64,000 bases of DNA. Source: Convolutriloba macropyga. Lineage: Eukaryota. The stretch lies in NCBI RefSeq assembly GCF_964194025.1, contig NC_134468.1:24118001-24182000 (forward strand), written 5' to 3'. The position numbers are program-made. How positions within the stretch are numbered: the first letter of the stretch is position 1; each line of letters starts with the position of its first letter. Shown here in pieces: positions 6,001-64,000 of the stretch.

Positions 6001-9000
6001 AGAGGATTAGATATTAATCCAGCGTCAATCCAGACTATTTCTACAAAAAAAAACTGCAAGCAGAAAAATTGAGCCAAAAGGTCAAAAAACAGCCAAAACT
6101 GTTATCTTAAGGGCTATTTTCTCAAAATGGCCGTTTTCCATGGCCGAATGTCATTCACTCAATCAAAACAGCGCATGAACAAAAAACTTCTTTCGCTCAG
6201 AAAAAAATTAGTTCAGACGTCAATTTTACTCGCTTTCACTTTTATGTCAAAGCGCTATCTGAACAAATAGTACTTCCAGTAAAAAGAAACCTCAAGAATA
6301 CCAATACTCAAGAAAACCAATACAACGCCCCAATAAAATTCAAATTCTTTGAATTTTAATAAGGCCGGTTGAAAAGCTGAGGGCGGCTATTAATTAGTGG
6401 TTTTTAATAGATTTTCGAAAAATGGAAATAACAGGCAGACGGGAAATTAGTTACTAAATCTCACGCATTCAAATCATGTTCGCCGAAAATAAGGTGAAAA
6501 AGGACGCGTTCTTATTCCGCGTTCTCAAAATTGGTAGACAGACGATGAATAACATACACCAGGTGCAAATCCTCGAATTCCTTCATCCTCATCACCCTTC
6601 TGAGCCAAGATACTTGCACTCAGTAAACAGTTGTAGTGGACAGATACATCTTCACTGCGAAGGAACTCGCCATACATCACTTCATCGTCCGTGTCCTTCT
6701 CTGCCCTCCCACAAAATATACAGTTGGTTGTGTGAACCAATGCATTTGTCAGAAGCACAGGCGACGCATCAGGAGAGCCACATTCAAAACGCCGCATCAG
6801 TTTGGTCGCTTGAGGCGATGTTTTCTTCTGACCAGAAGTGGACGTAGATGGAGACTGTGCTTTTTCCATTCTTTACTTATTTTTATTTCACATCAAACAG
6901 GCTAATACCACCTTCAAAGATCAAATCTCAAATCTGGAACCAAATAAATTTTGAATAAAACATGTTAACGTATGTTTATGCATGAGCAGGCAGTTAGCAC
7001 ACAAACACACACAACCTATCTTGTTTCAATTTTTATCGTTTTCTGCCGTAGAATGCGATTAAGCTAAACTAAAATCTTTCAACGATTCATGGCAGGATTG
7101 AACATTAAAATTGTACTTCTAACTTTTCGAATTCTGCTTCAAAAATTGTTCTCTAAACGGCAATCTGGCATTGATAAAAAAATACAATGAATCCGATTTG
7201 ATTCAGAGATGACGATTCCATTGTTGAATCATAATCCATAAAAAGGTTTTTAGCCATCAACCTGATAATTTAGATAAAACCAAACCATACGGACAACTAC
7301 AAATCCAGGTCAATCCAACGCACCAAAAACTATTAATTGGCCACATTCAACTCATAATAAATGAAAGCATATAAAAATTTCCAGAACTTTCCAAAAACTT
7401 TCCAGAAATTCATTAAAAAAGGTTACAAGACGCCAAAATAAAAACCACCAGATCTTATATACGATCTTCCAATTTCAGTCACAAGTCCGTTTCACAGATT
7501 TTCGAACATTCAATCCAAGACCAAATGGAAGAAAATTTTGTCCGCAAAGAAAATTTTAAATGAATTTCAGTAGTTTTAGGAAAACCAAATCTACGCGACA
7601 GGCATTATCATATCTTGACAAATTAGTGCGCAATACAATTAATGCATCAAAACATTTTTTTAGCTTGATAGAGCAAACGCTCTCAATTGCAATAAAACAA
7701 GAAAATTTTCAAGACCTAAGAAACAAGGTTTTTCATATAGTTCCATGAAAATTTTGGAAAATTTGTTTTAAAATAGGAAGCAAGTTGAAAAATTAGAAAT
7801 GAGATATCAAATATGAAGCATACCATTTTATAAAACTGAGGTACTACATAGTAGAAAGGAAACAAGCAGATTTTAAAGAATTCCAATTTGCTTATTGTAA
7901 GAACCTAAGTGTCCACATTGACCACAATTTGAATTTTAACACACGAAAGGATATTTTACTCAGCAAAATTGCTTAAAGAATTCGATCTTATCGAATTAGA
8001 AACTCAGTCCCACAAAGCACACGAGTTATGCTCTGAAAATCGCTAGTTCTTTGATATAAGTTACAGTTCTGTTTTGTTTATTCGAACAACAAAATCAAAG
8101 ACTACACAGGCAAATAAAATGGGGAAAAATCTGCTTCATGAGAGAAGTATAATTCAGGCCCAGATTTGCTGCTGAGCAACAAAAAAATTAGCAAGAGAAG
8201 AACATTCAACAACACAACTTAAACACAAACTAATATGTGTGACGATGAACAAAAATAAATTCGACTAAAGTGCAACACAAACAACATAAGAAGACTCGAG
8301 ACCTGTTTTGGCCATTTAGATTAGTAAATATCAAGTAAGTGCGAATGGATTTTTTTGAAGAGAGTTATCTCAAACCGTTTTCAAATATTGACCTGAAACC
8401 TGACGCAAAAGGGTAATAAACGAGACTTACATACGCCGTGAAGAACGCAAATTCAATTAAGAAGTAAACAAGGAAGCTCGGTAACGTATGTTCGCCCATT
8501 ATGTTCCGACCCATCTCAGCCAAATGTTTGACATAAAAGTCTCCAAAATGAAGAAAACGTTCAAAAATTTATATATTGCTCGAGATTATAAACTTCTCAC
8601 AATCGAAGTTTGTAGCAATTTTATTAGTCCTGTGGTCTTTTGTTTATGCGACTTTCCGCTTGACCGATTTTGAGTCCGACCCATTTGACTTTCCGTCCTC
8701 AAAAACAAGATAAACAGGTAGCGATTCGAGTTCATTAAGTTCTCTTAGAGCCCTAAGCCTCACTATACTCAAGAATGCGATTCACCAGAACTCTTTTGAG
8801 GAAACAAAGTCATGGTGCGAACGGCGGTTATTAATCTTAAAGGGTTGTTTCCCTCCCCCGCCGCCCAACACTCCCATTGTGAAGCTGGGAGGTAGGGTTG
8901 CTGGATGCGATGGGGGTTCAAATCGACAGCAGGTGAAGGGTTTAATCCAATTTGAACCCCCAACTCATCTAACAACCCTACCCCCCATCGCATGAATCCA

Positions 9001-63000: not shown

Positions 63001-64000
63001 CTTCGTTCGAGAGCAATTAAAAACAACTTAGCCTACCCAAGAAGAAAACTAAAACAAATTCACATACGTTTCCTTTTGGCAAATGCCTGAATAATTTTAT
63101 TCATGAATTGCTTGCAGCAGGTGCTTATCAATATGTTAGTTTCCTTTTTAGTTCAGAATGCTATTCTCTTTTCCCTAAAAACGGATTTTCCCGTGTCTTT
63201 AAATTTTAAATGATGGCTTTAAGTATGCAATACTTTCCAATGGAATGCTGTGCCGTCGTTGCTGCGGTTTAACCCGTGCTCTCACACCTTGGCTAGTTAG
63301 CTTTGCCAGGCTCAATAAAACCAAAAATTATTTAAAACGATTCAATAAAAAGAAAAAATCTACTCTGGTACAGAGGATAAAAGCAAAAAATATCTTTTAC
63401 TATCCTTAATCAGTCCTATTTATAAACTTAATCGCGGAGAACCTCAGAAAGGATGTTTTCAGATATCGTCTAAACTCAAGTTCACAATAAACAGACTTCA
63501 ACTGAAACCGTAATTTGTGCAACTCAGTTGTCACTGCAAACTATTACAAATTTTTTCTACCCTGCATAGATTTGAAAATTATGCACATTATAAACTGACA
63601 AAATTATAAAAATTTGAAAGCTGTATTATAAAAGCTATATAAGTAAGCAATTTGAAGAAGTATCTAAATCAGGGGCGAGAACTCAAACTAAAATATTAGT
63701 TCAAATCCTATTTTCAACAAAATTATAGGGTAAAAACCATTTTGTGCATGGCAAAAAGTTACAGAAATCAATTCGTGTGAAAACTATTGAGCGGGATAAC
63801 TTGACTAAAGGAGCTTGATCAAGTTCATGACGGACTGAGTAAAAATGAAGTAGGGCGAACTTGAATAAACAGGATTAATCTGAAATATAGATTTACATCT
63901 TCAATCAAGCTAAATTCCAGCAATGTTGCATTTCTTGAGGTAGCATTAAAATAGGAGCCGCATTTTCATTCCGCCTGTTCAAAATAAAAAATCAAAATAC

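What the first reader, a model, noticed from the sequence alone, without database searches (positions are those of the whole stretch)
8600..63018. Extreme orientation bias of HINE insertions relative to the host genes
Seen: by eye, more than 20 copies or fragments of two separate HINE families all have the hairpin end at left and the 5' subTIR at right, i.e. the sense of the minus-strand genes. Only one clear exception was found (~8600-9040). LINE remnants in the left half run antisense. Inference: insertion is strand-selective (a T-rich target on a T-skewed strand, or ssDNA exposed by transcription or replication), or one orientation is purged because it brings splice or polyA signals. Family 2 carries AG|GTAAGT on its opposite strand.
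Basis: partly seen in the sequence, partly recalled or inferred. Interest (0 to 1): 0.65.

Follow-up and report, generated by a model that had tools for sequence, protein, structure and literature searches.

The report
One-way HINE transposons among same-strand genes
Two families of small rolling-circle-type transposon relics (HINEs) point the same way as the four genes around them at almost every site in this stretch, a real bias that a liking for T-rich DNA may largely explain.

Summary
The core observation holds. Two families with HINE architecture (subterminal inverted repeats, a 3' stem-loop, T-runs at both ends) give 39 profile hits. 38 of these are on the minus strand, the strand of all four recognisable genes: (6-4) photolyase, pirin, NECAP and Cdc37.

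11 of the 39 hits are copies made by local tandem or segmental duplication. That leaves 28 separate loci, 27 minus and 1 plus at 8572-8960 (two-sided p = 2e-7 against 50:50). The dispersed copies are old (67-86% identical), share no flanks, and show no link between similarity and distance.

The loci are clustered and sometimes abut head to tail. Counted by cluster the split is 15:1 (p = 5e-4).

T-runs of 5 or more outside the elements lie 72% on the minus strand, and very T-rich 12-20-mers 80-92%. Against those baselines the cluster-level bias is marginal or not significant (p = 0.04 to 0.14).

The bias is as strong outside the recognised introns (17:1) as inside them (10:0).

My best reading is strand-asymmetric insertion into T-rich targets, with the elements seeding further insertions beside themselves. 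Selection against the A-rich, polyA-signal-rich strand, or single-stranded DNA exposure, cannot be excluded from one window.

The parts
8572..8960 (+). Family 1 (A subfamily) HINE, the one clear plus-strand copy
   Evidence: nhmmer E=8e-99 and 1.5e-80; inverted repeat against the other copies
9073..24222 (.). Complex tandem/segmental duplication, four units of 2838-4040 bp at 91-98% identity; carries one family-2 insertion copied three times
17060..17477 (-). Family 2 HINE lacking its 5' end; duplicates at 19990-20315 and 23779-24196 (counted as one locus)
24820..25239 (-). Family 1 (C subfamily), full length
25956..27521 (-). (6-4) photolyase/cryptochrome gene, single exon
   Evidence: Pfam FAD_binding_7 3e-73 and DNA_photolyase 1e-35; homologues
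27971..28273 (-). Pirin last exon (Pirin_C positions 29-103); acceptor AG just upstream
28567..28976 (-). Family 1 (C), in the pirin intron
29702..30184 (-). Family 2, full length, in the pirin intron; its 5' half is part of the array unit
29969..35259 (.). Tandem array of 5 units of ~1067 bp at 92-97% identity; each unit holds a family-2 5' half and a family-1 A copy
30213..30533 (-). Family 1 (A) copy in array unit 1; duplicates at 31286-31602, 32354-32668, 33420-33733 and 34481-34796 (counted as one locus)
35537..35968 (-). Family 1 (C), full length, in the pirin intron
36587..37503 (-). Pirin exons 36587-37042 and 37174-37503; donor GT after the first
39650..40106 (-). Family 2 (E subfamily)
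40048..41800 (.). Local direct plus inverted duplication that includes the 5' part of the 39650-40106 copy; a rearrangement, not separate insertions
42121..42289 (-). Family 1 internal fragment
42761..42957 (-). Family 1 fragment with a 3' end
43425..43802 (-). Family 1 (C); followed by a 220-bp local duplicate at 43830-44018
44021..44363 (-). Family 1 (C); its 3' tail abuts the 5' end of the next copy
44616..45025 (-). Family 2
45541..45845 (-). Family 1 (C)
46099..46239 (-). Family 1 5' part
46532..46617 (-). Family 1 3' end fragment
46628..47067 (-). Family 1 (A), full length
47114..47331 (-). Family 1 (C) 5' part, head to tail with the next copy
47332..47678 (-). Family 1 (A), full length
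47919..48437 (-). Family 1 (A), starts about 60 bp downstream of the NECAP stop
48490..49266 (-). NECAP-type gene (DUF1681) exon
   Evidence: Pfam 1.3e-58
49810..50191 (-). Family 1 (A)
51478..51499 (+). Probable family-2 5' end relic in plus orientation, in the only region with reversed AT skew
   Evidence: 18 of 22 match, T-run before it, 0 in 20 shuffles; sequence read; not found by any profile
54147..54515 (-). Cdc37 exon (C domain)
55007..55090 (-). Family 1 internal fragment, in the Cdc37 intron
56133..56628 (-). Family 2 (E), in the Cdc37 intron; 3' stem keeps pairing through a change on both sides
57408..57484 (-). Family 2 5' end fragment (57408-57429) abutting a family 1 5' fragment (57426-57484)
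57578..57951 (-). Family 1 (C), in the Cdc37 intron
58062..58536 (-). Family 2, in the Cdc37 intron
58770..59052 (-). Family 1 (A), in the Cdc37 intron
59141..60028 (-). Cdc37 exon (N and M domains)
62604..63039 (-). Family 1 (C), full length

Best explanation
The window holds relics of two non-autonomous Helentron-type (HINE) families. Nearly all of them have their structural 5'-to-3' sense on the minus strand. That is also the T-rich strand and the sense strand of all four recognisable genes.

Most likely the bias arose at insertion. HINEs integrate into T-runs read on the element's own strand. Such runs are two to ten times commoner on the minus strand here. Every inserted copy adds new same-strand T-runs at both of its ends, so later copies land beside earlier ones in the same direction.

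Shown: the architecture, the 27:1 (15:1 by cluster) bias, the clustering, the head-to-tail junctions and the T-run asymmetry.

Inferred: that the T-runs are the target, that target reading is strand-specific, and that seeding couples neighbouring orientations.
For: - Both families end in T-runs. [quoted passage not shown] Thomas et al. 2014 (PMC4067079, passages) describe HINEs as inserting in TT or T-rich sequence with 2-5 Ts at the boundaries.
- Outside the elements, with duplicated DNA counted once, the minus strand holds 56% of TT, 66% of T>=4 and 72% of T>=5 runs. It holds 80-92% of very T-rich 12-20-mers.
- The loci are clustered. 12 of 27 gaps are <=300 bp (simulated mean 5.2, P = 4.5e-4) and 4 of 27 are <=50 bp (mean 0.93, P = 0.01).
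- Junctions at 44021/44018 and 47332/47331 are head to tail. At the first, the T-run is shared between the two copies.
- At cluster level, 15 of 16 is compatible with a 72-80% baseline (p = 0.038 to 0.14).
- The bias is the same inside recognised introns (10 of 10) and outside them (17 of 18). An insertion cause predicts this.
- The dispersed copies are independent and old.
Against: - At locus level the T>=5 baseline is rejected: p = 1.2e-3, or 8e-4 with region-specific shares, where 8.1 plus copies are expected and 1 is seen. With regional shares the cluster-level p is 0.027.
- The most T-skewed part, 1-25.9 kb with A/(A+T) 0.61, has the fewest HINE loci and holds the plus-strand exception.
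- Inside the two introns the skew of unique DNA is weak (0.515-0.54), yet 10 of 10 copies are minus.
- The 'unique' DNA may itself contain decayed same-strand HINEs. That would inflate the T-run baseline.
- No empty site was available, so neither the target nor the absence of a target-site duplication was verified.
- In the oyster, Cg_HINEs are reported in both orientations (PMC7492417, passages).
Confidence: 0.4

Rival explanations
1. Insertion is random with respect to strand, and copies in the other orientation were purged afterwards. In that orientation the A-rich strand would lie in the sense of transcripts and bring polyadenylation and splice-donor signals. This is the same logic as the antisense bias of intronic L1, LTR and SINE elements.
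For: - All four genes are on the minus strand.
- 10 of 10 loci in the pirin and Cdc37 introns have the T-rich strand in the gene's sense.
- The antisense strands of the 28 loci carry 39 AATAAA/ATTAAA hexamers against 11 on the sense strands, present in 21 against 10 of the 28 copies.
- Family 2 has AGGTAAGT or GGTAAGT on the + strand in 3 of 6 loci.
- The copies are old (67-86% identity), so selection had time to act.
- Orientation bias of intronic ERVs/LTRs and dog SINEs is known. I saw those papers only as abstracts in search listings (PMC1794541 and 10.1101/2020.11.30.405357).
Against: - 17 of 18 loci outside the recognised introns show the same bias. No Pfam domain, and so no recognisable gene, lies in 38-48.4 kb, where 13 loci sit.
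- Donor-like hexamers differ little between strands, 6 sense against 9 antisense.
- Caveat: the gene map rests on Pfam hits to ORFs only. UTRs, read-through transcripts and unrecognised genes could make more of the window transcribed.
Confidence: 0.25
2. The HUH-type transposase integrates the transferred strand into single-stranded target DNA. One strand of this region is preferentially single-stranded: either the non-template strand of co-directional transcription units or the lagging-strand template of a fork that usually crosses the region one way. Orientation would then report that polarity, as it does for the bacterial IS200/IS605 family (recalled from memory, not checked here).
For: - The Helraiser work states that HUH nucleases cleave only ssDNA, and models cleavage of a single-stranded target (PMC4778049, passages).
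- The bias extends over about 55 kb, across introns and non-intronic DNA alike.
- The minus strand has T>A almost throughout, and G>C in most 2-kb windows. This is the sign expected of transcription- or replication-linked asymmetry (general knowledge).
Against: - There is no direct evidence in the window, and transcription cannot be separated from replication or from plain T-richness here.
- 49.3-54.1 kb has reversed AT skew and a probable plus relic. It also holds the minus copy at 49810-50191 and a minus fragment at 53328-53371.
- No paper reporting such a bias for Helitrons or HINEs was found.
Confidence: 0.2
3. The bias is an artefact of non-independence: the copies descend from a few founders multiplied by local duplication, so the orientations were inherited.
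For: - 11 of 39 hits are such duplicates.
- A further local direct-plus-inverted duplication exists at 40048-41800.
- Family-1 A copies lie just upstream of a family-2 5' end at three places and may have moved as composites.
Against: - After collapsing duplicates, 28 loci remain.
- Their 200-bp flanks match only where the flank windows physically overlap or contain a neighbouring HINE.
- Pairwise identities of 67-86% are unrelated to distance (rho 0.12, 0.17 and -0.11, all non-significant). The local duplicates, by contrast, are 91-98% identical.
- Even 16 clusters give 15:1.
Confidence: 0.05
4. The region is a one-strand small-RNA (piRNA-like) source locus, in which trapped elements are kept in one orientation.
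For: There is a dense one-way cluster of 12 loci in 42.1-48.4 kb. Unistrand clusters are known in flies (PMC10643416, abstract in a search listing).
Against: - Only two related non-coding families are involved.
- The elements lie among, and within introns of, ordinary housekeeping genes.
- They are co-oriented with the genes rather than antisense to a cluster transcript.
- No small-RNA data are available.
Confidence: 0.03

Closest known systems
HINEs / DINE-1 (non-autonomous Helentrons; Thomas et al. 2014, PMC4067079)
   Same: Short non-coding elements with subterminal inverted repeats, palindromic at the family-1 5' end. They have a short stem-loop a few nucleotides before the 3' end and T-runs at both boundaries. 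Two families are defined by different subTIRs.
   Different: - The 3' subTIR lies about 25-30 nt from the 3' end, against 38-60 nt in the mite families.
- No autonomous partner and no empty site are present in the window.
- The host is probably a xenacoelomorph. The best named photolyase homologue is Symsagittifera roscoffensis at 67%, so the placement is weak.
- I found no report of a strong one-way orientation for HINEs.
Cg_HINE elements of the Pacific oyster (PMC7492417)
   Same: HINEs associated with tandem repeats and occurring in dense interspersed patterns.
   Different: - The oyster elements are reported integrated in both orientations (passages).
- Here the 1067-bp array is not a central repeat of one element. 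It is a later tandem duplication whose unit boundary falls inside family 2.
Paramecium telomere-capping Helitrons (PMC13085455)
   Same: An absolute orientation bias of rolling-circle elements, attributed to a strand-asymmetric target sequence (passages).
   Different: There the target is the telomeric repeat at chromosome ends. Here the candidate target is generic oligo-T inside a gene-bearing region.
Orientation bias of intronic L1, LTR/ERV and SINE elements in mammals
   Same: The strand rich in A and in polyA signals is under-represented in the sense of genes (for the signal count here).
   Different: Those biases are moderate, are confined to transcription units and are ascribed to selection. 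Here the split is 27:1 and is equally strong outside the recognised introns. I saw the mammalian papers only as abstracts in search listings; the rest is general knowledge.
IS200/IS605 (IS608) single-strand transposition in bacteria
   Same: An HUH enzyme, a single-stranded target, and orientation tied to the lagging-strand template.
   Different: This comparison is recalled from memory and no paper was read here. No replication data exist for this window, and eukaryotic Helentrons also carry an endonuclease domain.

Membership tests
HINE (non-autonomous Helentron) | Short, no coding capacity | tested here: met
   Copies are 280-500 bp. No Pfam domain was found in any ORF overlapping them.
HINE (non-autonomous Helentron) | 12-15 bp subterminal inverted repeats at both ends | tested here: met
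   Family 1 has a 14-bp AATTGCTCTCGAAC at the 5' end and its complement near the 3' end. Family 2 has AATAGCCGC-type repeats at both ends. Shuffles gave 0-1.35 motif matches, against 14-30 seen for the two family-1 motifs and 5-9 for the two family-2 motifs.
HINE (non-autonomous Helentron) | 5' subTIR 2-4 nt from the 5' end; 3' subTIR 38-60 nt from the 3' end | tested here: inconclusive
   Family 2: 2 nt (TT) before the subTIR. Family 1: a T4-6 run before it. The 3' subTIRs lie about 25-30 nt from where similarity ends, which is shorter than in the mite families. Exact termini are uncertain without empty sites.
HINE (non-autonomous Helentron) | 5-10 bp palindrome 8-35 nt from the 3' end | tested here: met
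   The predicted stem-loop (5-6 bp stem) follows the 3' subTIR in 5 of 7 minus-strand 3' ends folded. The other two have decayed. The copy at 56131-56183 keeps the stem through changes on both sides.
HINE (non-autonomous Helentron) | Insertion in TT or T-rich sequence, Ts at both boundaries, no target-site duplication | tested here: inconclusive
   T-runs are present at both boundaries. No empty site is available, so the target and the absence of a duplication are unverified.
HINE (non-autonomous Helentron) | An autonomous Helentron (Rep/helicase/endonuclease) sharing the termini | not testable with these tools
   None is present in the window: no Rep or helicase domain in 372 of 470 ORFs scanned. 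No eukaryotic genome collection was available.
Selection-driven intronic orientation bias (L1/LTR/SINE type) | Bias confined to, or stronger in, transcribed regions | tested here: not met
   10 of 10 in recognised introns against 17 of 18 outside them. The gene map comes from Pfam only, so the untranscribed status of the rest is not shown.
Selection-driven intronic orientation bias (L1/LTR/SINE type) | The avoided strand carries more polyA or splice signals | tested here: met
   PolyA hexamers: 39 antisense against 11 sense. Donor-like hexamers: 9 against 6. AGGTAAGT or GGTAAGT is present in 3 of 6 family-2 loci.
Selection-driven intronic orientation bias (L1/LTR/SINE type) | Young insertions less biased than old ones | not testable with these tools
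   All dispersed copies are old (67-86% identity) and there is only one exception.
ssDNA-targeted HUH transposition (IS608-like polarity) | Orientation follows replication or transcription polarity independently of target sequence | not testable with these tools
   This needs genome-wide orientation against gene-strand and fork-direction switches. Only one co-oriented window is available.

The most novel reading that the evidence does not exclude
Helentron-type rolling-circle transposons integrate strand-specifically into DNA that is single-stranded on one strand only, either the non-template strand of transcription or the lagging-strand template. A 55-kb run of one-way HINEs would then be a fossil record of transcription or fork polarity in an animal genome. 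That would be the eukaryotic counterpart of IS608 behaviour.
Probability: 0.2. Interest if true: 0.75.

Novelty: new member of a known kind. Interest (0 to 1): 0.45.

Why it matters
If the one-way orientation holds genome-wide, it would give a simple read-out of how Helentron-type elements choose the target strand. That step of eukaryotic rolling-circle transposition is still only modelled. It would also show how much of the strand skew of introns and intergenic DNA in this lineage is made by the transposons themselves.

If it is only T-run targeting on a T-skewed strand plus clustering, it is an ordinary consequence of a known preference. Its value then is mainly as a caution when counting copies in duplicated DNA.

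Tried and rejected
- LINE remnants. Pfam scans found no reverse transcriptase, endonuclease or Helitron Rep/helicase in 372 of 470 ORFs of >=45 aa, nor in the 24 longest ORFs. The 98 ORFs left out fall into four groups: redundant segmental-duplication units at 20.6-24.1 kb, array units 2-5, ORFs overlapping the photolyase exon, and four ORFs inside the HINE at 62604-63039. The only hint was a sub-threshold DUF7041 match at 6111-6356 (+) (E = 0.003, below the curated cut-off).
- Long minus-strand ORFs in the segmental duplication (10254-10772 and others). They look like translations of T-rich DNA and are broken between units. I ran no further search on them.
- A tRNA-like stretch I thought I saw inside subfamily C. 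ARAGORN found no tRNA. Rfam found nothing at gathering thresholds over the window, nor at E<=1 on 24800-25260. Dropped.
- Family D (10966-11253 in four duplicated units, against 50958-51246 inverted). It shows no HINE hallmarks, so I left it out of the count. It is the only other dispersed repeat with an inverted member.
- An empty site from the indel between duplication units (12113-12507 against 16304-16313). It turned out to be a deletion with filler, not a clean insertion site.
- Relaxed profile scans (E<=10, --max) with a reversed-sequence control. The plus-strand weak hits are almost all the subTIRs of known minus copies, and none with E below 0.1 marks a new plus-strand copy. The control gave 6 hits per model.
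- Local hopping. Identity does not rise with proximity.
- Genome-wide test.
- Spliced gene models. Exons were searched one at a time only.
- Paper supplements. None were seen. Those of PMC4067079 (its empty-site figures) could bear on the target definition.
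Full report
**The window.** It is 64,000 bases with no N and about 35% G+C. The + strand is A-rich almost throughout, with AT skew near +0.2 over 1-26 kb.

Pfam scans of individual ORFs find four genes, all on the minus strand:
- A single-exon (6-4) photolyase/cryptochrome at 25956-27521.
- A pirin gene with exons at 37174-37503, 36587-37042 and 27971-28273.
- A NECAP-type gene at 48490-49266.
- Cdc37, with exons at 59141-60028 and 54147-54515.

The two pirin exons carry adjoining parts of the Pirin_C domain and are bounded by GT and AG. 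An intron of about 8.3 kb therefore spans 28.27-36.6 kb. Cdc37 has an intron of about 4.6 kb.

The best named relative of the photolyase is Symsagittifera roscoffensis at 67% identity. The source is probably a xenacoelomorph, though that rests on a single hit. It is not human.

**What the repeats are.** Self-comparison and alignments of dispersed copies give two families.

Family 1, read on the minus strand, has these parts in order:
- A run of 4-6 T at the start.
- A 14-bp subterminal repeat (AATTGCTCTCGAAC) that runs into a short palindrome.
- A body of 250-400 nt, in two subfamilies that I call A and C.
- The complement of the 14-mer.
- A 5-bp stem with a 4-nt loop.
- A T-rich tail of about ten bases.

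Family 2 starts TT followed by AATAGCCGC. It ends with the complementary repeat, a 6-bp stem with a 3-nt loop, and a short T-rich tail. A diverged subfamily E shares these ends.

The stem-loops fold in 5 of 7 minus-strand 3' ends tested. One family-2 copy keeps the stem through changes on both sides.

This matches the HINE description of Thomas et al. 2014 (PMC4067079, passages). One difference is that the 3' repeat lies nearer the end, about 25-30 nt against 38-60 nt. Empty sites and an autonomous partner could not be examined.

**Counting.** Profiles iterated with nhmmer at E<=1e-4 give 39 hits, 27 of family 1 and 12 of family 2. 38 are on the minus strand.

Eleven hits are copies of copies:
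- Four extra family-1 and four partial family-2 hits lie in a tandem array of five ~1067-bp units (29969-35259, 92-97% identical). The unit boundary of this array falls inside a family-2 element.
- Two extra family-2 hits lie in the complex 9073-24222 duplication (units of 2838-4040 bp, 91-98% identical).
- One lies in a 220-bp duplication at 43615-44049.

These 28 loci look independent. Their flanks are unrelated except where flank windows physically overlap or contain a neighbouring HINE. Their pairwise identities are 67-86%, unrelated to distance (Spearman 0.12, 0.17 and -0.11).

Against 50:50 the two-sided p is 2.2e-7.

A relaxed scan with a reversed-sequence control found no further plus copy. 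It did find a few more minus fragments, at 53328-53371 and 55712-55785.

One probable plus relic of a family-2 5' end lies at 51478-51499, with 18 of 22 matches after a T-run and none in 20 shuffles. Counting it gives 27:2, p = 1.6e-6.

**Context.** Ten loci lie in the pirin and Cdc37 introns, all minus. Eighteen lie outside the recognised introns, 17 of them minus. Thirteen sit in 38-48.4 kb, where no domain was found.

The loci are clustered:
- 12 of 27 gaps are <=300 bp (simulation mean 5.2, P = 4.5e-4).
- 4 of 27 are <=50 bp (mean 0.93, P = 0.01).

Some junctions are head to tail. At 44021 the 3' tail of one copy runs straight into the 5' end of the next through a shared T-run.

Family-1 A copies lie just upstream of a family-2 5' end in the array, at 57.4 kb and at 58.5-59 kb. 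The A copies at 8586, 49836 and in the array have a C-rich 3' extension that runs into a family-2-like start. Some pairs may therefore have moved as composites. That would lower the count by two or three without changing the picture.

Grouping loci into 16 clusters gives 15:1, p = 5.2e-4.

**Can T-richness explain it?** The elements' sense strand is T-rich (36.6% T, 24.8% A).

Outside the elements, with duplicated DNA counted once, the minus strand's share rises with T-richness:

| Target on the element's strand | Share on the minus strand |
|---|---|
| TT | 56% |
| T>=4 runs | 66% |
| T>=5 runs | 72% |
| Very T-rich 12-20-mers | 80-92% |

The tests against these baselines give:

| Count tested | Baseline | p |
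|---|---|---|
| 27 of 28 loci | 72% | 1.2e-3 |
| 27 of 28 loci | 80% | 0.016 |
| 27 of 28 loci | 90% | 0.22 |
| 27 of 28 loci | regional T>=5 shares (8.1 plus expected) | 8e-4 |
| 15 of 16 clusters | 72% | 0.038 |
| 15 of 16 clusters | 80% | 0.14 |
| 15 of 16 clusters | regional shares | 0.027 |

A preference for T-rich sequence read on the element's strand, plus seeding of new insertions beside old ones, therefore comes close to sufficing.

Two points count against it. The most skewed region, 1-26 kb, is the poorest in HINEs and holds the exception. The unique DNA of the two introns is only weakly skewed.

**Rivals.**
- Purging of the other orientation fits the signal content. It also fits the age of the copies. 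It does not explain the equal bias outside recognised introns, unless much more of the window is transcribed than Pfam can show.
- Exposure of one strand as ssDNA is mechanistically reasonable. HUH nucleases cut only ssDNA, and the Helraiser model has a single-stranded target (PMC4778049, passages). It is untestable here.
- Pure non-independence is largely excluded.
- A one-strand small-RNA locus is unlikely for two non-coding families sitting among housekeeping genes.

**Literature.** Six searches found no report of a gene-strand or regional orientation bias for HINEs, DINE-1 or Helitrons.

In the oyster, HINEs are reported in both orientations (PMC7492417, passages). Paramecium Helitrons show an absolute orientation bias set by a strand-asymmetric target, the telomeric repeat (PMC13085455, passages). 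That is the closest precedent for a target-driven explanation.

The library covers open-access papers only, and supplements were closed, so absence from print is not established.

**Verdict.** The elements are new members of a known kind.

The cause cannot be settled from one window in which all genes, the T skew and the elements point the same way. I rank the causes as follows:
- Target-strand asymmetry with self-seeding: 0.4.
- Selection: 0.25.
- ssDNA polarity: 0.2.

Noticed in passing
window 29969-35259: Five tandem units of ~1067 bp (92-97% identical) fill much of the pirin intron. Each unit starts exactly at the AGGTAAGT inside a family-2 element. Each holds a family-1 copy plus about 510 bp with two ~100-bp self-complementary stretches (for example 30647-30746 and 30809-30907).
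   Followed up: partly
window 9073-24222: A complex tandem/segmental duplication with units of 2838-4040 bp at 91-98% identity. It has no Pfam-recognisable content. Its long minus-strand ORFs look like translated T-rich DNA. One unit has a deletion with filler at 16304-16313.
   Followed up: partly
window 40048-41800: A direct plus inverted local duplication (84-89% identical) that starts inside the 5' part of the family-2 copy at 39650-40106. It produces a plus-oriented HINE fragment by rearrangement rather than by insertion.
   Followed up: partly
window 49300-54100: This is the only region with reversed AT skew (T5+ runs 36 against A5+ runs 27). It holds the probable plus-strand family-2 relic (51478-51499) and the only inverted member of repeat family D (50958-51246). 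It could be a small inversion or a plus-strand transcription unit.
   Followed up: no
window 8840-9040, 49700-49930, 30185-30330: Three family-1 A copies lack the canonical 3' subTIR and hairpin. Instead they have a C-rich extension that runs into a family-2-like 5' start. This suggests composite family-1 plus family-2 elements formed by bypass of a 3' end.
   Followed up: partly
window 60335-61000 and 63318-63992: A direct repeat of about 660 bp at 87% identity, lying about 3 kb apart. The second copy is cut by the window end, and a family-1 HINE lies between the two. It could be LTR-like, but this is unresolved.
   Followed up: no
window 1-1054 and 1384-2437: A 1-kb direct duplication at 98% identity at the left edge of the window.
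   Followed up: no
window 6111-6356 (+) and 5991-6308 ~ 25432-25732: A sub-threshold DUF7041 match (E = 0.003) in a plus-strand ORF within a 69%-identical dispersed repeat pair. It is the only hint of a coding transposon relic in the left half.
   Followed up: no
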